From an uncultured Gammaproteobacteria bacterium (GTDB lineage: Bacteria; Patescibacteriota; Microgenomatia; Levybacterales; GWA1-39-11), in the NCBI GenBank assembly GCA_964452165.1, contig CAYVKP010000001.1, forward strand, positions 76,110 through 140,109: a stretch of 64,000 bases of DNA. Direction: 5' to 3'. The notes below the pieces were generated by a model. The model searched no databases. It had not been told where the DNA came from and saw only the letters and a list, made by a program, of their open reading frames with translations. Position 1 is the stretch's first letter. Every line of letters begins with the position of its first letter. A program made the translations under genes and the position numbers. This document shows positions 1,965-64,000 of this stretch, piece by piece.

Positions 1965-2036
1965 TCCCCTGTAGCTCAATGGTAGAGCAGGAAGCTGTTA
2001 ACTTCAAGGTTTGAGGTTCGAATCCTCACGGGGGAG
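1965..2036 (+). tRNA. tRNA-Asn (anticodon GTT); CCA not encoded
   Basis: Hand-folded cloverleaf. Acceptor stem tcccctg/cggggga with one G-U pair. D arm gctc/gagc. Anticodon loop cuGUUaa with U33 and A37. T arm tgagg-TTCGAAT-cctca. Discriminator G. Confidence 0.85.
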
Positions 2037-8799: not shown

Positions 8800-9132
8800 A
8801 TGCAGTTTTTAATAATAGGAAAAGACGGGACTGACGAGGAAGGAAAAAACAGAAGAATCGCAGCAAGAGACGCACACATTAAGCTTGGAGATGAGCTTCT
8901 TGCTTCTGGTAATATGTGGTACGGCGCAGCCTTGTTGAACGACAACAATGAAATGATTGGATCAATGCTTCTCATGGACTTTACGTCCGAACAAGCGCTA
9001 CACGATTGGCTTGATAACGAACCCTATGTAACCGGAAAAGTATGGGAGTCAGTAGAAATATCAAAGTGCAATGTCCGGGATCCTTGGCAATTTAGCCGCC
9101 CACAATCCTTCTTTGAATCAAGAAAGAAATAG
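8800..9132 (+). CDS. YciI-like dimeric alpha/beta-barrel protein
   Basis: Pattern RRIAARDAHIKLGDELLASG...GAALLNDNNEMIGSMLLMDFTSEQALHDWLDNEPYV resembles the YciI family. Confidence 0.55.
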   Translation: MQFLIIGKDGTDEEGKNRRIAARDAHIKLGDELLASGNMWYGAALLNDNNEMIGSMLLMDFTSEQALHDWLDNEPYVTGKVWESVEISKCNVRDPWQFSRPQSFFESRKK

Positions 9133-9138
9133 AAACTT

Positions 9139-9166
9139 CTTGTAAACAAATTGCTTCTGATATACT
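9139..9166 (+). promoter_or_regulatory. iterated promoter box copy (cttgtaaacaaattgcttcTGaTATACT) before gene 9174
   Basis: Same box; ATG 7 nt after the -10. Confidence 0.55.
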
Positions 9167-55349: not shown

Positions 55350-55799
55350 ATGCAATGCCCTTATTGTAAAAGTACTGATTCAGAAGTCGTCGAGACGAGA
55401 GTCTCCGAGGACGGAACAAATATAAGACGTCGAAGAAATTGCCTTTCTTGCGGAAAAAGATACACCACATACGAGCGGATAGAAAACGTTACATTAATAG
55501 TCCAAAAAAAAGACGGGAAACGCGAGCAATTTGACCGGGAGAAACTACGAGTTGGAATTGCAAGGGCTTGCGAAAAGACTACGGTATCAGCAGAAGATAT
55601 TAATAATATAGTAGATGAGATAGAACGGGAATTGATTGGCGGAGACTCAGTTGAAATAGAAGCAAAAAAAATTGGACAAATGGTAGCAGCCAAGCTTAAG
55701 AAAATCGACAAAATTGCATATATAAGATTTGCAAGCGTTTTTAAAAGATTTGTTGATGTTGAAGATTTTGAAAAAGAAGTAAAAAGATTATTAAAATAA
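55350..55799 (+). CDS. nrdR: transcriptional repressor NrdR
   Basis: MQCPYCKSTDSEVVETR...NCLSCGKRYTTYE zinc ribbon plus ATP-cone. Confidence 0.9.
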   Translation: MQCPYCKSTDSEVVETRVSEDGTNIRRRRNCLSCGKRYTTYERIENVTLIVQKKDGKREQFDREKLRVGIARACEKTTVSAEDINNIVDEIERELIGGDSVEIEAKKIGQMVAAKLKKIDKIAYIRFASVFKRFVDVEDFEKEVKRLLK

Positions 55800-55801
55800 A
55801 A

Positions 55802-58336
55802 ATGAAATTAGACGGAATAAGAAATAAAGTATTTTTAGACAGGTACTCCTTAAAAGACGTAGAGGGAAATCCCCTCGAGTCAACTCCCGAGGAGATGTGG
55901 AGAAGAGTTGCCAAGGGAATTGCCGGTGTTGAGAAAAAGGCAGATCGAAAGCGCTGGGAAGACAAGTTCTATAAAGTAATGGAGGACTTTAAATTCTTGC
56001 CGGGTGGTCGAATCTTTGCAGGGGCCGGAACGGGTTTTGATGTAACCTACTTTAATTGTTTTGTTATTCCAAATCCTCCCGACTCAAGACAGGGGATCAT
56101 GGAGAATTTGACTCAAATGATTGAAATTATGGCCCATGGTGGGGGTGTGGGACTTAATCTTTCGGGACTTCGCCCGAGAGGAGCAAGGGTAAAGAAAGTT
56201 AATGGTTTTTCCTCAGGCCCCATGAATTGGGCAGAGCTTTATTCGCTAGCTACAAAAGATATTGTTCAGCAGGGTGGTTCGCGCCGCGGCGCACTCATGC
56301 TTATGATTCATGATTGGCACCCGGACGTTGAAGAGTTTATCACTGTCAAGCAGGATCTCACCAAAATTAACGGGGCAAATCTTTCCGTATGTGTTTCAGA
56401 CGAATTTATGGAAGCGGTAAAAAAAGACGCTGACTGGGACTTGATGTATCCGGATCTCGATGATAAGAAGTATGACAAAAATTGGGATGGCGATATCCAT
56501 GACTGGAAGAAAAAAGGCGGTAAAGTCAGGGTTTACAAAACAGTAAAAGCATCATATCTCTGGAATCTAATTTGCGAAGCTGCATGGAGAAGTGCAGAGC
56601 CGGGTTTGCATTTCTTAGATCGCTCAAACAAAAGATCAAATACATGGTATTTTGAAAAACTTCTTGCAACAAACCCCTGCGGAGAACAGCCACTTGGTGC
56701 TTGGGCAGTTTGTAATTTGGGAGCGATGAATCTTTCAGCCTATGTAAAAGACGATGATCTTACTTCCGATAAGGCAGGTTGGTTTGACTATGAATCATTC
56801 GGGAAAGATGTGAAGATTGCCATGAGGTTCCTCGACAACGTTATTGATGATACGCATTATTTCTTCAAAGAGAATGAAAAAGTGGCAAAAGACATTAGAA
56901 GAACAGGCCTTGGTATTATGGGGATTGCTGACACCTTTATTAAAATGAAAGTTAGATACGGATCTAGCGAATCAGAAGAGGTTTCTAAAAAGATTTTTGA
57001 AACACTTCGTAACAACGCCTACATTGCCTCATCAGATATCGCGAAAGAAAAAGGATCTTTCCCCAAGTACGATCGTATCAAATATCAAAAAGGCTATCAT
57101 ATTAAAGCGTTGCCAAAAGCAATTCGCCAGAGAATTTTTGATCAAGGGATCCGCAATGCTGTTCTTCTGACAATTGCGCCAACCGGTACAACCAGTCTTA
57201 TCGCCGGTGTTTCATCAGGGGTCGAGCCGGTTTATGAATTTGAATACTCTCACAACGGGAGACTCGGGAAGCAAATGGTATATCATGACCTGTATGGAAA
57301 ATGGAAAGAGGCACATCCAGAAGATGAGAAGCCTGACTATTTTGTCGGAGCAAATGATCTAACCCCTGAGGATCACGTAAAGATTCAGGCAATCGCGCAA
57401 GCATATATCGACTCATCAATCTCAAAAACTGTCAATGCTCCAAATAGTCATACGGTTGAGGACGTAAAGAGCTTATATATGAAGTCTTACGACATGGGTC
57501 TAAAGGGAGTTACATACTTCAGGGACGGTTCACGCCAGGGTGTATTGCAGAGGGAAGAAAAGAAAGAGGAGCTGCCGGTTGCGGTGCCGAAAACGCCTGC
57601 GATTTTAAAAAGACCATCTATCATGTATGGGTTAACTTATAAAACACCAACTCCACTCGGAGACGCCTTTATCACTTTGAATAATGATGAGAATGGAGAT
57701 CCGTTTGAAGCATTTGTAACAATTGGAAAATCGGGAAGTGATGTTGCCGCAATGACTGATGCGCTTGGGCGAATGATCTCGCTACTCCTGAGAATTCAAT
57801 CTCCTGTTACATCGCGAGAGAGAGTAAGACAAATTGTTGCCCAGCTTTCAGGAATCGGAGGAGTTAGAAGTGTAGGATTTGGACCTAAGCAAGTTAGGTC
57901 TGTCCCGGACGCCATCGCCAAAATATTGGCCGAACAATTCGGGTTTGCTGTAAATGGAGTCGTCAAGGATCTACAAAAGAAAGAAGCACTTATGAGTAGC
58001 AATGGTATACAGGTTACAAATGGCAATGGAAAGTCTTTGAATGGTAATGGAGTCGCTCTTACCAACGGAAATTCTAATGGAAACGGTATTTCAAACGGCA
58101 ATGGATTACTTGCAAACGGTCACAGTAACGGAGCGGCACAAGTACAAAACATTCAAATAAATGTTGCAACTCAGGTCTCAACACCTGACGCGTCGACAAC
58201 AGTTATGGAGCAATTAAGTCTTAATTCAGAACCCACTCACAACGCCTTTGATCTGTGTCCATCGTGTGGAGGAGCAACCCTTGCACATGAAGAGGGTTGC
58301 AAAAAATGCTATAGCTGTGGTTATAGCGAATGTTAG
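55802..58336 (+). CDS. nrdJ: class II (adenosylcobalamin-dependent) ribonucleotide reductase NrdJ with an Asn/Gly-repeat insertion and a C-terminal zinc ribbon
   Basis: FLDRYSLKD start, catalytic NPCGEQPL, radical-site and B12-region motifs, C-terminal CPSCGG...CKKCYSCGY. Confidence 0.9.
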   Translation: MKLDGIRNKVFLDRYSLKDVEGNPLESTPEEMWRRVAKGIAGVEKKADRKRWEDKFYKVMEDFKFLPGGRIFAGAGTGFDVTYFNCFVIPNPPDSRQGIMENLTQMIEIMAHGGGVGLNLSGLRPRGARVKKVNGFSSGPMNWAELYSLATKDIVQQGGSRRGALMLMIHDWHPDVEEFITVKQDLTKINGANLSVCVSDEFMEAVKKDADWDLMYPDLDDKKYDKNWDGDIHDWKKKGGKVRVYKTVKASYLWNLICEAAWRSAEPGLHFLDRSNKRSNTWYFEKLLATNPCGEQPLGAWAVCNLGAMNLSAYVKDDDLTSDKAGWFDYESFGKDVKIAMRFLDNVIDDTHYFFKENEKVAKDIRRTGLGIMGIADTFIKMKVRYGSSESEEVSKKIFETLRNNAYIASSDIAKEKGSFPKYDRIKYQKGYHIKALPKAIRQRIFDQGIRNAVLLTIAPTGTTSLIAGVSSGVEPVYEFEYSHNGRLGKQMVYHDLYGKWKEAHPEDEKPDYFVGANDLTPEDHVKIQAIAQAYIDSSISKTVNAPNSHTVEDVKSLYMKSYDMGLKGVTYFRDGSRQGVLQREEKKEELPVAVPKTPAILKRPSIMYGLTYKTPTPLGDAFITLNNDENGDPFEAFVTIGKSGSDVAAMTDALGRMISLLLRIQSPVTSRERVRQIVAQLSGIGGVRSVGFGPKQVRSVPDAIAKILAEQFGFAVNGVVKDLQKKEALMSSNGIQVTNGNGKSLNGNGVALTNGNSNGNGISNGNGLLANGHSNGAAQVQNIQINVATQVSTPDASTTVMEQLSLNSEPTHNAFDLCPSCGGATLAHEEGCKKCYSCGYSEC

Positions 58337-58359
58337 TGACCCTATAATAAATTTGCCTG

Positions 58360-58388
58360 TTGACAGTTTTTAGTCTTCGATTTATTAT
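58360..58388 (+). promoter_or_regulatory. sigma-70 promoter TTGACA-17-TATTAT for the B12-binding-protein operon
   Basis: TTGACA at 58360-58365; TATTAT at 58383-58388. Confidence 0.5.
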
Positions 58389-58394
58389 AGTCAA

Positions 58395-58516
58395 ACTTTA
58401 GTTTACATAGGTAATCACCGTGAAAGTCGGTGACTGTGCCGCAACTGTTAAAGTCAGAAAACTATGTTTACATCAAATCCCGAGCAGGAATTTTTTTGTT
58501 CTTTCGAACAACGAAT
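58395..58516 (+). ncRNA. structured 5' leader with weak, partial resemblance to a cobalamin riboswitch
   Basis: GTGAAA-capped hairpin tcaccg-tgaaagt-cggtga, gccgcaactgt (like GCCACTG), aagtcagaaaac (B12-box-like AGYCMG...). Sits between the promoter and the terminator, upstream of B12-binding-protein genes. Confidence 0.35.
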
Positions 58517-58517
58517 T

Positions 58518-58543
58518 AACTCCTCGGGAAGAGGAGTTTTTTT
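58518..58543 (+). terminator. intrinsic terminator/attenuator hairpin immediately before the ATG of 58544
   Basis: 8-bp stem aactcctc/gaggagtt, loop gggaa, then TTTTTTT. The 3' arm contains the only SD-like GAGGAG. Confidence 0.55.
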
Positions 58544-59173
58544 ATGTTCGAGCAAATAAAAATAGTTTTTAAAAAGTATTTAGGATCGCCCCTTATTGCG
58601 CTTGCGATCGTTTTCTTTATCCTGGCAGGAGCAACGGTTCTTTTTTCCGGTAAGTCTACAAAGACACTAGGCGTAATAACGGAAAATAAACAAGCGGCAA
58701 GAGTTAAGTCTGTTAAATCAACAGCGACACCCACTCAAGAGGCTCAGGAAAGTTCGAATACTTCGACAAATTCCTACCAACAGCCAACAACGGCCTCGTC
58801 AACTCCCACCCCGTATAAAACCGAGACTACAACCACAACAAATTCTTCCAATAACTCGAATGGATCCTCTCAAACACAAGGCAGGGTAAAACTTTCAATC
58901 AACGGTTCATCCACCGGAGAAGTAAATGTTGGTGCGGGACAAAATCAGTGCGATGTTCTAAACGATGCTCTTGCGCAGGGAAAAATTTCTCAGCTTACTA
59001 TGCGTTATGAATCAAGTCTTGGGACTTACGGCGTCTACAAAATTAACAATACTGGCAAAGATAATTCTATTTGGTGGACTTATAAAGTAAACGGAAACTC
59101 GCCTGACAAGGGGTGCAGTTACCTAGGAGTAAATAATGGTGACAGTGTCGAATGGAATTATATAGGAAGCTAA
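58544..59173 (+). CDS. membrane-anchored Ser/Thr-rich protein with a C-terminal DUF4430-like (transcobalamin/intrinsic-factor beta-domain-like) module
   Basis: N-terminal TM helix, ST-rich linker, C-terminus WWTYKVNGNSPDKGCSYLGVNNGDSVEWNY. Confidence 0.55.
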   Translation: MFEQIKIVFKKYLGSPLIALAIVFFILAGATVLFSGKSTKTLGVITENKQAARVKSVKSTATPTQEAQESSNTSTNSYQQPTTASSTPTPYKTETTTTTNSSNNSNGSSQTQGRVKLSINGSSTGEVNVGAGQNQCDVLNDALAQGKISQLTMRYESSLGTYGVYKINNTGKDNSIWWTYKVNGNSPDKGCSYLGVNNGDSVEWNYIGS

Positions 59174-59174
59174 T

Positions 59175-60905
59175 ATGAAATTTATTAAATCAACATTGCT
59201 ATTATTCTTATTCGCGACAGTCTTTTTATTCGTGACCTCAAAAGTTTTTGCAGCAGGAGTGACCGCCGAGGTCAGAATTGTAGGTTCATCAAGAACTATT
59301 TTCTACAATAACGTAACAATCGACGGCGGTTGCACGGTGACAGATGTTGATGGTGGGGTACATACATACACTGACCCGCTCGCAATTTGTGCACTCGATA
59401 AAGCATCAAAAGATGGCGGTTTTTCCTACAAAATCAAAGATAGTTCTTTCGGAATATACCTGACGGGAATTGCGGAAGACGACGGCGCAGCGGATTTTTC
59501 AACTTATTGGCTTTACGATATTAATGGAGCAGGAGCCCAAGTTGGAATTTCAAGCTTAACTCTAAATAACAATGATAAGCTTTTCTTACATTTTTATCCT
59601 GATGCCGACCCTAATGCTCGTTCGTCAAATGATGGAATTGCGTACCTGCGTAGCCAGCAGGCAGCAGACGGGCACATTAACGGATTTGGTGGAGTAAGCC
59701 AGTGGGCGGCGATGGCATTTGCAGCAAAAGGAATTGATATAAGTGGTGTTTCAAAAGGCGGCGCGAGTCTTAAAAGTTATCTTGAGGCCAATTTGCCCAC
59801 TGCTTGTTCTTCTGCAACAGATTGGGAGAAAGATATACTCGCGATAGTTGATACCGGCGCAAATCCTTACAACTTTGGGGGATTAAATTTTGTTGGAACT
59901 CTCAAGTCTTCTGCTTATTACAACGGCACACAAATAGGAGATAGCTCGGGGCTCAACGACGACTTTTTTGGAGTAATGGCTCTCATTGCCGCTGGTGTCT
60001 CAAACTCGGATTCCGTAATAAAAAATAGTGTTTCGTACATAATTTCAAAACAAAATTCGGACGGAGGATGGGGTTTTTCCACAAGTAGTAAATCTGACAG
60101 TAATGATACTGCAGCAGCGCTTCACGCCTTGTCTTCAGCAAAAAATTACGGAGTAACTCATGCAAGTCTTGATAACGCAATAAGCCAAGCCAAGACTTAT
60201 TTGCTTTCACTTCAAGCTTCAGACGGTGGATTTAAATACGATGGTTCTTCGACTGATCCCGATGGATCATCAACTGCTTGGGATTTGGTTGGGCTAAATG
60301 CTGCGGGCATGAATGATGCCGCAACCAGTGCAAAAAAATGGCTCACAAACAATCAGAATAAGGACGGCGGATTTTATTATCAGGCCTCATTTGGAAGTGA
60401 TACGTACACAACAGCACATGCGGTGATAGGGCTTTCGGGTAAGAATTGGATAATTAAGAATTTTGATGCCGGTTCAAATTCAAGCACGGGTACAACATTA
60501 TCGTCCTGTATTACTCCTACACCAACAAGTTCTGTTACTCCAACTCAAACACCAAGCCCAACAAATACTCCCACACCAACACCTACAAGCTCAACTACTA
60601 ATAATAATTCGACTAATAATACTACCAATACAACCAATAATTATTTCGACAGACCAACCCCGGGACTCTCAAGCGTAGTCAACCGAACTCTTTCTGAAAA
60701 TAAGGTAGTTGATAATCCCGGTGAAACAAAAGAACAAGTTTTGGGTGTACAAACCGATAACTCCGGAAGTAATTTACCCAAAACAGTTCAGGTTGCCGGC
60801 ATTAATAATACGCCCAATGTTTTTGCACAATTGTTCTTTGCATTAGGTATTGCCGTCCTCTGTTTTCACATAGGATCACTTTATCAAAAGAGGAAATTAG
60901 CCTAG
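59175..60905 (+). CDS. surface protein: signal peptide, DUF4430-like domain, alpha/alpha-toroid (prenyltransferase/terpene-cyclase-like) repeats, Pro/Thr linker, C-terminal TM anchor; a bacterial intrinsic-factor/transcobalamin-like candidate B12 binder
   Basis: TYWLYDINGAGAQVGISSL (DUF4430). Repeats QQAADGHINGFGG, KQNSDGGWGF, LQASDGGFKY, NQNKDGGFYY. TPTPTSSVTPTQTPSPT linker; C-terminal hydrophobic anchor. Confidence 0.6.
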   Translation: MKFIKSTLLLFLFATVFLFVTSKVFAAGVTAEVRIVGSSRTIFYNNVTIDGGCTVTDVDGGVHTYTDPLAICALDKASKDGGFSYKIKDSSFGIYLTGIAEDDGAADFSTYWLYDINGAGAQVGISSLTLNNNDKLFLHFYPDADPNARSSNDGIAYLRSQQAADGHINGFGGVSQWAAMAFAAKGIDISGVSKGGASLKSYLEANLPTACSSATDWEKDILAIVDTGANPYNFGGLNFVGTLKSSAYYNGTQIGDSSGLNDDFFGVMALIAAGVSNSDSVIKNSVSYIISKQNSDGGWGFSTSSKSDSNDTAAALHALSSAKNYGVTHASLDNAISQAKTYLLSLQASDGGFKYDGSSTDPDGSSTAWDLVGLNAAGMNDAATSAKKWLTNNQNKDGGFYYQASFGSDTYTTAHAVIGLSGKNWIIKNFDAGSNSSTGTTLSSCITPTPTSSVTPTQTPSPTNTPTPTPTSSTTNNNSTNNTTNTTNNYFDRPTPGLSSVVNRTLSENKVVDNPGETKEQVLGVQTDNSGSNLPKTVQVAGINNTPNVFAQLFFALGIAVLCFHIGSLYQKRKLA

Positions 60906-60940
60906 AAAATCAATCTAACTTATGATACGATAAAAAAATA

Positions 60941-61459
60941 ATGAACAAGCATTTTGACAAATTTTTCCCACTTCTGATTATTTCTATTGGGGTTTTGATG
61001 CGTCTTGTTCCTCACTCTCCAAACTTTACGCCAATAGCGGCGACCGCGTTATTCGGTGGAACATATTTATCCAAAAAATATGCTTTTATAATTCCAGTTG
61101 CAGCCATGCTTGTATCAGATTATTTTATAGGTTTTCATCACACTATGGTTTATGTCTATGGATCTTTCATTTTGACGGGAGTGATTGGGATTTGGCTTCG
61201 CGAACACAAGAGTGTTCGTAATGTAATTGGCGCATCCTTGCTCTCATCGGTCCTTTTCTTCCTAATTACAAATTTTGGGGTTTGGGTAAACGGCGCATAC
61301 GCGCGTGATATCTCGGGACTTTGGCAAAGCTATATGATGGGAATCCCATTCTTCAGAAATACGGTTGCCGGAGACCTTTTCTACACGGGTGCGTTTTTCT
61401 TATCGTTTGAGGCTGCCAAAAGCTTAATCTATCAATTAAAGCCCGCACGCGTAAAATAA
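60941..61459 (+). CDS. small 5-6 TM membrane protein, candidate vitamin/B12 permease (ECF-S/BtuM-like by context)
   Basis: 172 aa, hydrophobic helices, conserved-looking PHSPNFTP segment. It lies between the B12 binders and the adenosyltransferase. Confidence 0.45.
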   Translation: MNKHFDKFFPLLIISIGVLMRLVPHSPNFTPIAATALFGGTYLSKKYAFIIPVAAMLVSDYFIGFHHTMVYVYGSFILTGVIGIWLREHKSVRNVIGASLLSSVLFFLITNFGVWVNGAYARDISGLWQSYMMGIPFFRNTVAGDLFYTGAFFLSFEAAKSLIYQLKPARVK

Positions 61460-62025
61460 TGCCTATCTACACGAGAACCGGGGATCGCGGTAAGACACGG
61501 CTTGGGACGGGTAAGAAAGTCTCAAAAGATTCCTGCAACGTTGAATCCTACGGAACCATAGATGAATTAAATGCACTTTTAGGCGTGGTTTATGCAGAAA
61601 TTGAAATAGGGAAAAGCCCGTATAGAAAGCGTTTACTTAATTTACTTCTTCTTATTCAAAGCGACCTTTTTTGCATAGGAGCGTATTTGGCAAATCCGGG
61701 TCTATCAAATATGATGGATCATTTTCCCGAGAGGATAAAAAGTTTTGAACGTGAGATAGACTTTATGATGGGAAAAGCCCCTCCTCTTACCAACTTTGTT
61801 TTTCCACAAGGGGGTAGAGTAGGTTCACTTTTTCAGCTGGCAAGAACCGTTTGTCGTCGAGCGGAACGTACGGTTGTTACGCACGCAAAAAAGGAAAAAA
61901 TTGACGAGCGAGTGTTAATCTATACAAACAGACTCTCAGATCTAATGCTTGCAGCCGCTCGTTTCACTGCCCACATTGATAAAAAGAGAGAAATTGTTTG
62001 GAGCAGAGAAAAATACCTCAAATAG
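61459..62025 (+). CDS. PduO-type ATP:cob(I)alamin adenosyltransferase
   Basis: MPIYTRTGDRGKTRL...VESYGTIDELNALLG, classic PduO/MMAB N-terminus. Confidence 0.85.
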   Translation: MPIYTRTGDRGKTRLGTGKKVSKDSCNVESYGTIDELNALLGVVYAEIEIGKSPYRKRLLNLLLLIQSDLFCIGAYLANPGLSNMMDHFPERIKSFEREIDFMMGKAPPLTNFVFPQGGRVGSLFQLARTVCRRAERTVVTHAKKEKIDERVLIYTNRLSDLMLAAARFTAHIDKKREIVWSREKYLK

Positions 62026-63805: not shown

Positions 63806-64000
63806 TCGCCGATTATACCAAAAAGCCTCCCTTAGCAGGAGGCTATTATGTGGAGATGGGGGGCTATGAGCCCCCGTCCAAAATTACAAAATAAAAACAT
63901 CTACAAGCTTATTTTGTCTTTGATTGTCGTTACAACATACTCCGACAAAAAGGATTTGTTGTAACCAAGGTTATATTTTTTCGAATAAAGCTCCAACCAA

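What the first reader, a model, noticed from the sequence alone, without database searches (positions are those of the whole stretch)
58337..58543. Structured leader with a terminator abutting the start codon; weak, partial cobalamin-riboswitch likeness
Between nrdJ and the DUF4430 gene lie a sigma-70 promoter (TTGACA-17-TATTAT), about 120 nt of leader, and then a strong intrinsic terminator. The terminator (8-bp GC stem aactcctc/gaggagtt, loop gggaa, T7) has a 3' arm that is the only SD-like sequence (GAGGAG) and ends 1 nt before the ATG. The leader contains a GTGAAA-capped hairpin (tcaccg-tgaaagt-cggtga), gccgcaactgt (like GCCACTG) and aagtcagaaaac (like the 5' half of the B12 box AGYCMGgAga). 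The resemblance to the cobalamin aptamer core is partial: the 3' half of the B12 box and a clear P1 stem are missing. However, placing a ligand-controlled terminator/SD-sequestering hairpin in front of B12-binder genes is what a B12 riboswitch would do. It could also be a divergent or novel aptamer class.
Basis: partly seen in the sequence, partly recalled or inferred. Interest (0 to 1): 0.6.

Follow-up and report, generated by a model that had tools for sequence, protein, structure and literature searches.

The report
Class-II vitamin B12 riboswitch with terminator
This leader is an ordinary member of a known family of vitamin-B12-sensing RNA switches (Rfam RF01689) that most likely shuts off B12-uptake genes in a Patescibacteria genome by forming a terminator that also hides the ribosome-binding site.

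Summary
The likeness to a cobalamin riboswitch is a full-length match, not a weak one. Rfam's AdoCbl-II model (RF01689) matches window 58393-58469 at 50.0 bits (gathering score 36.5, E 3.9e-9 for the whole window).

It is the P13/L13 partner of the L5 kissing loop (UGCCG x CG[A]GCA). The same hairpin region is complementary to the terminator's 5' arm and loop (58520-58529), so it can form an antiterminator.

In 49 related riboswitches, P13, the kissing loop and the antiterminator all covary. At the U-tract the two states are nearly equal in energy (-20.4 vs -19.3 kcal/mol).

Likely mechanism: B12 locks the kissing loop and P13. The terminator then forms, transcription stops at the start codon, and the GAGGAG ribosome-binding site is hidden.

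The regulated genes are DUF4430, a DUF4430 plus alpha-toroid protein, DUF6580 and a PduO-type adenosyltransferase, directly after AdoCbl-dependent nrdJ. This synteny recurs across Patescibacteria.

Verdict: a new member of a known kind, of low to moderate interest.

The parts
58360..58388 (+). Sigma-70-like promoter: TTGACA (58360-65), 17 nt, TATTAT (58383-88). The predicted transcription start is about 58395, at the 5' edge of the aptamer.
   Evidence: It matches 11 of 12 consensus positions, and 0.3% of random 76-nt windows do as well. Activity was not tested.
58393..58469 (+). Cobalamin class-II aptamer (Rfam RF01689 AdoCbl-II). P3 is 58406-10 with 58462-66. P4/L4 is 58416-32 (GUGAAAGU T-loop). 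P5/L5 is 58435-43. P6/L6 is 58445-57. J6/3 is AAAA at 58458-61. J1/3 is UAGUUUA at 58399-58405. P1 is weak (AAA 58393-95 with UUU 58467-69).
   Evidence: 50.0 bits, gathering score 36.5, full model. One search shows covariation in P3, P4, P5 and P6 across 49 homologs.
58437..58441 (+). L5 kissing-loop strand, 5'-UGCCG-3'.
   Evidence: It is complementary to L13 (58481-86) apart from one bulged A. It is nearly invariant, and where it changes L13 changes to match.
58478..58489 (+). P13/L13 regulatory hairpin: UCC (58478-80), loop CGAGCA (58481-86), GGA (58487-89). Proposed kissing-loop pairs are U58437-A58486, G58438-C58485, C58439-G58484, C58440-G58482 and G58441-C58481, with A58483 bulged.
   Evidence: The stem covaries (UCC/GGA, CCC/GGG, CUUC/GAAG, CCUU/AAGG, UCU/AGA, ACC/GGU). 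The loop is conserved. The third loop base varies (A, U or C), as expected for a bulge.
58478..58529 (+). Antiterminator (the ligand-free state). 58478-84 (UCCCGAG) pairs with 58523-29 (CUCGGGA), and 58486-87 pairs with 58520-21. It encloses an inner hairpin, 58496-58501 with 58506-58511.
   Evidence: It is the minimum-energy fold of the nascent platform for 3' ends from 58530 to 58542 (-20.4 kcal/mol). Searches show that P13 and the terminator's 5' arm covary across loci (0 of 5000 permutations).
58518..58543 (+). Intrinsic terminator and SD-sequestering hairpin: 8-bp stem 58518-25 with 58531-38, loop GGGAA, and a U7 tract at 58537-43 that abuts the start codon.
   Evidence: -12.0 kcal/mol. 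In one search, all 15 of 354 SD-preceded starts that have T>=6 just before the ATG are riboswitch-controlled genes.
58531..58536 (+). Shine-Dalgarno sequence GAGGAG, which is the 3' arm of the terminator, 7 nt upstream of the ATG.
   Evidence: The same arrangement occurs in 20 of 24 related terminator-type platforms.
58544..59173 (+). First regulated gene: a 209-aa membrane-anchored DUF4430 protein (a domain like the C-terminal domain of transcobalamin).
   Evidence: PF14478, 35.8 bits. The orthologous first gene in L002 is also DUF4430.
58546..58557 (+). Second L13-like hairpin, GUU-CGAGCA-AAU, overlapping the start codon. It could be a second kissing-loop acceptor. This is speculative.
   Evidence: Stem-flanked CGAGCA has a background rate of 8.4e-6 per base. 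About 0.1 copies are expected downstream of the 49 hits, and 2 were seen (the window and L050). It is absent from close relatives.
59175..62025 (+). The rest of the regulated operon: a DUF4430 plus alpha-alpha-toroid protein (59175-60905), a DUF6580 membrane protein (60941-61459), and a PduO-type ATP:cob(I)alamin adenosyltransferase (61459-62025).
   Evidence: TIGR00636, 161 bits against a cut-off of 108. Synteny is shown.
55802..58336 (+). Upstream gene nrdJ, an adenosylcobalamin-dependent ribonucleotide reductase. No terminator lies between it and the riboswitch.
   Evidence: TIGR02504, 578 bits against a cut-off of 400. One search shows nrdJ ending 0-150 nt upstream of the riboswitch in about 20 loci.

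Best explanation
Window 58393-58543 is a class-II (Cbl-II, Rfam RF01689) cobalamin riboswitch that acts as an OFF switch on a B12-salvage operon. The operon encodes two DUF4430 proteins, a DUF6580 protein and a PduO-type adenosyltransferase. It lies just downstream of nrdJ, which encodes an AdoCbl-dependent enzyme.

Shown by computation:
- The aptamer matches the family model.
- Its helices covary.
- A conserved hairpin, P13 (UCC-CGAGCA-GGA, 58478-89), follows 8 nt after the aptamer.
- The P13 loop is complementary to L5 (UGCCG) except for one bulged A.
- The same P13 region is complementary to the terminator's 5' arm and loop.

Inferred mechanism:
- With cobalamin bound, the L5-L13 kissing loop locks the otherwise marginal P13 hairpin (-1.6 kcal/mol).
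- The terminator's 5' arm is then free, and the 8-bp terminator forms.
- RNA polymerase releases at the U7 tract, right at the start codon.
- In any transcript that escapes, the GAGGAG ribosome-binding site stays buried in the terminator's 3' arm.
- Without cobalamin, P13 opens as the transcript grows. UCCCGAG pairs with CUCGGGA (58523-29) before the 3' arm is made.
- The terminator cannot form, the SD is exposed, and the uptake and adenosylation genes are expressed.

Transcripts can start at the promoter at 58360-88. They can probably also read through from nrdJ.
For: - RF01689 hit: 50.0 bits against a gathering score of 36.5, full length, E 3.9e-9.
- The same family sits next to DUF6580 in 7 of the 12 Patescibacteria loci scanned with Rfam.
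- A model built from the aptamer plus P13 finds 49 instances in the window and the 80 genome-scan loci.
- Pair counts on those 49: 92.5% of cells paired against 71.6% in shuffles. 16 of 23 pairs change on both sides. The P13 stem changes on both sides in 13-18 sequences per pair.
- Kissing loop: 94.7% paired. Compensatory variants are AGCCG with CGAGCU in L031, and UCCCG with CGG(NN)GA in L051, L053, L055 and L076. The bulge position varies freely.
- Antiterminator: the mean duplex energy between the P13 region and its own terminator's 5' arm is -11.6 kcal/mol. It is -9.4 +/- 0.4 when loci are swapped (0 of 5000 permutations reach the observed value) and -5.6 for shuffled arms. Matched changes include CCCGAG/CUCGGG, UUCCGAG/CUCGGAA, UCUCGAG/CUCGAGA and UUCGAG/CUCGAA.
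- Energetics in the window: the antiterminator fold is the minimum-energy fold of the nascent platform up to 58542 (-20.4). The P13-plus-terminator state is at -19.3. The switch is therefore balanced, and a few kcal/mol from the kissing loop could tip it.
- A U-tract of 6 or more before the ATG occurs in 15 of 354 SD-preceded starts, and all 15 are riboswitch-controlled.
- Gene context: AdoCbl-dependent NrdJ, DUF4430, PduO.
- Literature: the kissing loop is the cobalamin-dependent regulatory switch and always has at least one unpaired L13 nucleotide (PMC5028336). [quoted passage not shown]
Against: - No experiment: ligand binding, termination and the transcription start are all untested.
- P1 is nearly absent in the window, with only 3 A-U pairs.
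- The P13 stem has only 3 bp.
- Free minimum-energy folding of the whole leader does not recover the aptamer fold, which is common for riboswitches.
- For the full-length mRNA the terminator fold is more stable (-26.1). The antiterminator therefore matters only kinetically, during transcription.
- L5 and L13 are almost invariant, so covariation support for the kissing loop rests on a few events.
- The homologs are phylogenetically related, so the permutation and shuffle counts are not true probabilities.
- The alignment used for the pair counts was fitted to the model's nested helices. The kissing loop was not part of that model.
Confidence: 0.85

Rival explanations
1. Translation-only switch. 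The hairpin at 58518-58538 only sequesters the SD, the U-run is just a spacer, and no ligand-dependent transcription termination occurs. Cobalamin would still act through the kissing loop and P13.
For: The SD is inside the 3' arm. Close relatives have purely translational platforms, in which the P13 3' arm GGAG is followed by an AUG 4-8 nt later (L004 and L068; L085, L088, L103 and L096). Class-II riboswitches studied so far (env8) regulate translation (PMC5028336). Intrinsic termination has not been studied in Patescibacteria.
Against: A G+C-rich 8-bp stem followed directly by U7 is a canonical intrinsic terminator. U-runs of 6 or more before a start codon are found only at riboswitch-controlled genes (15 of 15, out of 354 starts), so the U-run is selected with the switch and is not a generic spacer. 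The two modes do not exclude each other.
Confidence: 0.1
2. Constitutive terminator. The hairpin is simply the nrdJ operon terminator, and the upstream aptamer-like sequence is a non-functional relic.
For: No other terminator lies between nrdJ (which ends at 58336) and 58518. P1 is degenerate in the window.
Against: The aptamer scores well above the family threshold. L5, L13, P13 and the antiterminator complementarity are all intact, and they covary among relatives. A constitutive terminator placed between a strong promoter-like site and the operon's start codon would silence four conserved genes.
Confidence: 0.03
3. Divergent or novel aptamer class with a ligand other than a corrinoid.
For: J6/3 (AAAA), J1/3 and the kissing-loop geometry differ from the marine AdoCbl-variant consensus (PMC5028336).
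Against: The match to RF01689 is full-length and above the gathering score. All core motifs are present: the L4 GUGAAA T-loop, GCCGCAACUG and AGUCAG. The regulon consists of B12 binders, a putative transporter and an adenosyltransferase, next to a B12-dependent enzyme.
Confidence: 0.02

Closest known systems
Class-II cobalamin riboswitch (Rfam RF01689 AdoCbl-II, formerly 'AdoCbl-variant'; type structure env8HyCbl, PDB 4FRN/4FRG)
   Same: - Four-way junction P3-P6.
- L4 T-loop (GUGAAA), with a short P6 capped by a loop that can dock into it.
- No P2 arm and no P6 extension.
- A bulged J1/3 of 7 nt.
- A short single-stranded linker (8 nt here, 7 in env8) leading to a P13 hairpin whose loop kisses L5.
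- An OFF switch placed in front of B12-related genes.
   Different: - In 144 AdoCbl-variant sequences the kissing loop has an A-G pair plus two unpaired purines, strictly conserved, and L13 itself carries the RBS (PMC5028336).
- Here L13 is the hexaloop CGAGCA, with one bulged A and five Watson-Crick pairs to L5 UGCCG.
- The RBS is not in L13. It lies in a separate downstream terminator.
- J6/3 is AAAA.
- P1 is nearly absent.
Priestia megaterium metE corrinoid riboswitch (class I), with the P13 / antiterminator / terminator model tested by compensatory mutagenesis (PMC10327014)
   Same: - The same logic: the kissing loop stabilises P13.
[quoted passage not shown]
- The L5-L13 core pairs are CCG x CGG.
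   Different: - That RNA has a class-I aptamer, with a P2 arm and a P6 extension.
- Its antiterminator uses the 3' side of P13. Here it uses the 5' arm and the loop, plus two 3' bases.
- Its P13 is long and has an internal loop. Here P13 has 3 bp.
- Here the terminator also contains the SD, and its U-tract abuts the start codon.
Dual transcription/translation expression platforms of other riboswitches, in which the terminator's 3' arm overlaps the SD
   Same: One hairpin serves both as an intrinsic terminator and as an SD sequestor.
   Different: This is a general architectural similarity only. No specific family membership is implied, and the comparison rests on general knowledge rather than on a test made here.

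Membership tests
Rfam RF01689 AdoCbl-II (class-II cobalamin riboswitch) | Covariance-model score at or above the curated gathering score, over the whole model | tested here: met
   50.0 bits against 36.5, model positions 1-81 of 81, E 3.9e-9 for the 64-kb window.
Rfam RF01689 AdoCbl-II (class-II cobalamin riboswitch) | Four-way junction P3-P6 supported by covariation | tested here: met
   In 49 homologs, P3 has 4 of 5 pairs with changes on both sides, P4 has 5 of 5, P5 has 2 of 2, and P6 has 1 of 3. Overall 92.5% of cells are paired against 71.6% in shuffles. The alignment was fitted to the model, so the counts lean towards the structure.
Rfam RF01689 AdoCbl-II (class-II cobalamin riboswitch) | Class II rather than class I: no P2 arm between P1 and P3, and P6 capped by a simple loop with no P7-P11 extension | tested here: met
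   J1/3 is 7 unpaired nt (58399-58405). P6 is 3 bp with a 7-nt loop (58445-57). The definition is taken from PMC7367189.
Rfam RF01689 AdoCbl-II (class-II cobalamin riboswitch) | L4 T-loop (GUGAAA) and its L6 docking partner | tested here: inconclusive
   The sequence motifs are present (L4 UGAAAGU, L6 UUAAAGU). Tertiary docking cannot be tested by computation.
Cobalamin riboswitch clan (CL00101) | An L5-L13 kissing loop to a hairpin in the expression platform, with at least one unpaired L13 nucleotide | tested here: met
   UGCCG (58437-41) pairs with CG[A]GCA (58481-86). This helix is 94.7% paired in 49 sequences. L5 and L13 variants are compensatory in L031, L051, L053, L055 and L076. The bulge base varies. 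The criterion is taken from PMC5028336.
Marine 'AdoCbl-variant' subgroup (env8-like) | Kissing loop with a non-canonical A-G pair and exactly two unpaired purines, and the RBS inside L13 | tested here: not met
   There is one bulged A, the other pairs are all Watson-Crick, and the RBS is in the terminator's 3' arm rather than in L13. So this RNA is a class-II member but not of the env8-like kissing-loop subtype.
Rfam RF01689 AdoCbl-II (class-II cobalamin riboswitch) | P1 helix closing the aptamer | tested here: inconclusive
   Only AAA/UUU could be aligned, and 3 of 6 model pairs are deleted. Relatives such as L002 and L006 have a clearer P1.
Rfam RF01689 AdoCbl-II (class-II cobalamin riboswitch) | Binds a cobalamin. 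Subclass selectivity: IIa binds MeCbl/HyCbl, IIb binds AdoCbl. | not testable with these tools
   The architecture (a bulged J1/3, and P6 capped by a loop) resembles Cbl-IIa as drawn in PMC7367189. However, selectivity within class II is reported to be broad (PMC6158498).
KL / P13 / antiterminator / terminator platform (P. megaterium metE type) | Mutually exclusive pairing of a P13 strand with the terminator's 5' arm | tested here: met
   There are 7 + 2 bp of complementarity in the window. The antiterminator is the minimum-energy fold of the nascent RNA (-20.4, against -19.3 for P13 plus terminator). Covariation across loci gives 0 of 5000 permutations reaching the observed value.

The most novel reading that the evidence does not exclude
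The Patescibacteria riboswitches may form a distinct lineage-specific subtype of class II. Its features would be:

- a minimal 3-bp P13 with an invariant CGAGCA hexaloop;
- a class-I-like kissing loop with one bulge;
- a terminator whose U-tract ends exactly at the start codon.

It would be used as a conditional terminator inside the operon. When B12 is scarce, transcripts of the B12-dependent nrdJ gene would extend into a previously uncharacterised B12-scavenging system (transcobalamin-like DUF4430 binders plus a solitary DUF6580 membrane protein).

In the window, a second L13-like hairpin over the start codon (58546-57) could add a second, translational lock.
Probability: 0.2. Interest if true: 0.4.

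Novelty: new member of a known kind. Interest (0 to 1): 0.22.

Why it matters
For riboswitch biology this is a confirmation, not a discovery. The aptamer class, the kissing-loop switch and the P13 / antiterminator / terminator logic are all known.

Its value lies in annotation and physiology. It marks DUF4430, the DUF4430 plus alpha-toroid protein and DUF6580 as B12-regulated genes, and so probably as B12-acquisition genes. The organisms are Patescibacteria, which have tiny genomes and depend on external cofactors for their only ribonucleotide reductase.

The compact platform (about 75 nt, with two nearly isoenergetic states) and the many natural covarying variants collected here could serve as a data set for studying or engineering kissing-loop-coupled terminators.

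Tried and rejected
- Free-energy folding of the whole leader does not reproduce the aptamer and is not informative on its own.
- I looked for a convincing P1 in the window by hand and found none beyond AAA/UUU. The direct repeat GUUUACAU (58401-08 and 58466-73) has no obvious pairing role.
- Sub-threshold Rfam matches in 58200-58700 (snoRNA and sRNA families, E 0.14-8.4) are noise.
- Literature searches for cobalamin riboswitches in Patescibacteria or CPR, and for DUF6580, returned nothing relevant.
- A profile of DUF6580 hit only one solved chain, 6fnp_A 'Membrane protein', at E 0.12. From memory 6FNP is the ECF-CbrT B12 transporter. The match is too weak to claim homology.
- The second CGAGCA hairpin at the start codon is statistically borderline and absent from close relatives. 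I keep it only as a note.
- I considered that the U-run might be a generic A/U-rich SD-AUG spacer. I rejected this because such runs occur only at riboswitch-controlled starts.
- I considered an ON switch. I rejected it because P13 and the terminator can form together, and it is the alternative to P13 (the antiterminator) that blocks the terminator.
- A Pfam call with wrong coordinates and a script with a wrong file path failed and were repeated.

Full report
**Observation**

- The consensus scan finds one promoter-like site: TTGACA (58360-65), 17 nt, TATTAT (58383-88), matching 11 of 12 positions. It also finds one + strand terminator-like site: AACTCCTC-GGGAA-GAGGAGTT at 58518-58538, followed by T's.
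- The T-run (58537-58543, seven T) abuts the ATG at 58544 with no gap. GAGGAG (58531-36) is the 3' arm of the stem and lies 7 nt from the ATG.
- In a background test, only 10 of 3000 random 76-nt windows from the sequences in hand reached 11 of 12. The promoter-like site is therefore unusual, but it is untested.

**Identity of the leader**

A scan of the whole window against Rfam 15 at gathering thresholds gives three hits. One is RF01689 (AdoCbl-II, cobalamin clan CL00101) at 58393-58469 on the + strand. It scores 50.0 bits against a gathering score of 36.5, with E 3.9e-9, and covers model positions 1-81 of 81.

- tcaccg-tgaaagt-cggtga is P4 with the L4 T-loop.
- gccgcaactgt is L5, the 3' strand of P5 and the 5' strand of P6.
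- aagtcagaaaac is the 3' strand of P6 plus J6/3.

Class II lacks the P2 arm and the P6 extension (PMC7367189). Here J1/3 is 7 unpaired nt, and P6 is 3 bp capped by a 7-nt loop.

P1 really is weak. Only AAA/UUU align, and three model pairs are deleted.

The -10 box ends 4-5 nt before the aptamer. The predicted transcription start (about 58395) therefore coincides with the 5' edge of the aptamer.

**Context**

- Upstream are NrdR (55350-55799) and an adenosylcobalamin-dependent ribonucleotide reductase, NrdJ (55802-58336; TIGR02504 scores 578 bits against a cut-off of 400).
- Downstream are a membrane-anchored DUF4430 protein (58544-59173), a 576-aa protein with DUF4430 plus an alpha-alpha toroid (59175-60905), a DUF6580 membrane protein (60941-61459) and a PduO-type adenosyltransferase (61459-62025; TIGR00636 scores 161 bits against 108).
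- Homologs of the DUF6580 protein are named by their sources as Patescibacteria (Levy-, Gottesman-, Woykebacteria). The identical protein sits on a 650-kb NCBI contig.

**Relatives**

An alignment of DUF6580 homologs was used to fetch 80 genomic loci.

- Rfam finds RF01689 next to the DUF6580 gene in 7 of the first 12 Patescibacteria loci.
- Reading those leaders showed a motif outside the Rfam model. Between 5 and 25 nt after each aptamer lies a small hairpin, YCC-CGAGCA-GGR. In the window it is UCC-CGAGCA-GGA at 58478-58489.
- A covariance model of the aptamer plus this hairpin finds 49 instances in the window and the 80 loci at E <= 0.01.
- On that alignment, 92.5% of cells form standard pairs (71.6% in column shuffles, 29-43% when the partners are slid). 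16 of 23 pairs change on both sides.
- The hairpin stem covaries freely: UCC/GGA, CCC/GGG, CUUC/GAAG, CCUU/AAGG, UCU/AGA, ACC/GGU, GCC/GGC. The loop stays CGAGCA.
- Caveats: the alignment is fitted to the model's nested helices, and the sequences are related. These counts are supportive, but they are not probabilities.

**The kissing loop**

In cobalamin riboswitches the ligand-dependent switch is a kissing loop between L5 and the loop of P13 in the expression platform. L13 always has at least one unpaired nucleotide (PMC5028336; PMC7367189).

- Here L5 5'-UGCCG-3' (58437-41) is complementary to L13 5'-CG[A]GCA-3' (58481-86), with A58483 bulged.
- This pairing was not part of my model, yet 94.7% of cells pair.
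- The bulge position is the only loop position that varies without a partner change (CGUGCA in L009, CGCGCA in L021).
- Changes in L5 are matched in L13. AGCCG goes with CGAGCU in L031. UCCCG goes with CGG(UC)GA or CGG(G)GA in L053, L055, L076 and L051.
- The P. megaterium metE kissing loop uses the same CCG x CGG core (PMC10327014).
- The geometry differs from the marine AdoCbl-variant subgroup. There an A-G pair and two unpaired purines are reported as strictly conserved, and L13 carries the RBS (PMC5028336).

**Coupling to the terminator**

- In the window, UCCCGAG (58478-84: the 5' arm of P13 plus half of L13) is the exact complement of CUCGGGA (58523-29: the 3' part of the terminator's 5' arm plus its loop). 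A58486-G58487 can pair with C58520-U58521.
- Folding successively longer nascent platforms shows that this antiterminator is the minimum-energy structure for 3' ends from 58530 to 58542, at -20.4 kcal/mol. It contains an inner hairpin at 58496-58511.
- With the 3' end at 58543, forcing P13 plus the terminator gives -19.3 kcal/mol. P13 alone is worth only -1.6, and the terminator alone -12.0.
- At the decision point the two states are therefore nearly equal in energy. A ligand-stabilised kissing loop would tip the balance towards P13 plus terminator.
- For the full-length mRNA the terminator fold, extended by CGAACA/UGUUCG across the start codon, is favoured at -26.1.

**Comparative support for the antiterminator**

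- In 24 related platforms with a terminator, the P13 region and its own terminator's 5' arm give a mean duplex energy of -11.6 kcal/mol.
- The value is -9.4 +/- 0.4 when loci are swapped (0 of 5000 permutations reach the observed value) and -5.6 for shuffled arms.
- The changes are visibly compensatory: CCCGAG/CUCGGG, UUCCGAG/CUCGGAA, CUUCCGAG/CUUGGAAG, UCUCGAG/CUCGAGA, UUCGAG/CUCGAA. A few loci use the 3' half of P13 instead.
- In 20 of the 24 platforms the terminator's 3' arm is an SD (GAGGAG or GAAGGA) and the U6-8 tract runs straight into the AUG.
- Among 354 SD-preceded starts of long ORFs in the window and the 80 genome-scan loci, only 15 have T>=6 just before the ATG. All 15 are the riboswitch-controlled starts. 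The U-run is therefore tied to the switch and is not a generic spacer.
- An exact-match scan of metagenome contigs with the 27-nt core found 45 more contigs with the same layout. Some have a purely translational version, in which the P13 3' arm GGAG is followed by an AUG a few nt later.

**Operon logic**

- The order NrdR, NrdJ, riboswitch, DUF4430, (DUF4430 + toroid), DUF6580, PduO recurs in about 20 loci.
- The aptamer starts 0-90 nt after the nrdJ stop codon. It overlaps the stop in L003, and the gap is 3 nt in L006, 10 nt in L050 and 12 nt in L002.
- In those loci there is no room for a separate promoter. The riboswitch must act on transcripts coming from nrdJ, as a conditional terminator.
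- The window has a 56-nt spacer with a strong promoter-like site. A few other loci also carry TTGACA or TATAAT boxes in their spacers.
- In the window both routes are plausible.

**Comparison with known systems, and novelty**

- By the family's own test this RNA is a member of RF01689, and it has the class-II architecture.
- Its platform follows the P13 / antiterminator / terminator logic shown by compensatory mutagenesis in a class-I riboswitch (PMC10327014).
- Three things differ: the 5' side of P13 is used, P13 has only 3 bp, and the terminator contains the SD.
- It is not of the env8-like kissing-loop subtype.
- I found no paper describing cobalamin riboswitches in Patescibacteria. That is a gap in description, not a new kind of element.
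- Ligand selectivity (AdoCbl versus MeCbl/HyCbl) cannot be inferred. The bulged J1/3 and loop-capped P6 resemble Cbl-IIa, but selectivity in class II is reported to be broad (PMC6158498).

**Verdict**

This is a new member of a known kind, with interest of about 0.2.

Noticed in passing
L081:7095-7205, L021:7123-7233, L010:7139-7242, L026:7073-7181, L008:7136-7247, L031:7090-7212, L015:7001-7095, L044:1783-1916, L011:1417-1534: Many relatives carry a second cobalamin riboswitch at, or overlapping, the 3' end of pduO. It sits in front of a fast-evolving protein of about 525 aa that has no Pfam hit (for example L081:7243-8820). That protein has a C-terminal CxxC...CxxC zinc ribbon reminiscent of the NrdJ C-terminus. 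The window has neither this second switch nor the gene. Its function is unknown, and it appears to be a B12-regulated orphan family.
   Followed up: partly
window 58546-58557: A second stem-flanked copy of the L13 hexaloop, GUU-CGAGCA-AAU, overlaps the start codon of the DUF4430 gene. L050 has a similar copy 17 nt into its ORF. About 0.1 such copies are expected by chance downstream of the 49 hits, and 2 were seen. It is absent from close relatives. It could be a second kissing-loop acceptor, or it could be chance.
   Followed up: partly
L003:4153-4249 and L003:4295-4404: Two cobalamin riboswitches lie in tandem directly after nrdJ. The first overlaps the nrdJ stop codon. A third lies on the opposite strand at 9049-9158, in front of DUF4430 genes.
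   Followed up: no
L020:5009-5106, L027:5024-5194, L053:898-1053, L055:1488-1606, L076:5081-5198: A second kissing-loop type occurs in more distant relatives. L5 is GUC(A/C)CGC and P13 is CCUU-CGGUCGA-AAGG, which implies a 2-nt bulge. This is closer to the env8-like geometry.
   Followed up: partly
window 57990-58170 (C-terminal region of NrdJ): NrdJ carries a low-complexity Asn/Gly-rich insert (NGNGKSLNGNG...) between the catalytic/TSCPD part and the C-terminal CxxC...CxxC zinc-ribbon tail. I read this from the sequence and did not analyse it.
   Followed up: no
window 60941-61459: The DUF6580 protein family has 6469 homologs at E <= 1e-10, many of them in Patescibacteria, Ignavibacteria and Bacteroidota. 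Its only, non-significant, match among solved structures is 6fnp_A (E 0.12). A few homologs also hit PF12822 (ECF transporter S component). No ECF energising module lies in the operon, so it may be a solitary S-component-like B12 transporter.
   Followed up: partly
window 63848-64000 (- strand) and 1965-2036 (+ strand): A tmRNA gene (RF00023, cut off by the end of the window) and a tRNA gene were found by the Rfam scan. Both are unrelated to the finding.
   Followed up: no
window 58401-58408 and 58466-58473: The direct repeat GUUUACAU flanks the aptamer core on both sides (5' of P3 and 3' of P3). I found no pairing role for it.
   Followed up: no
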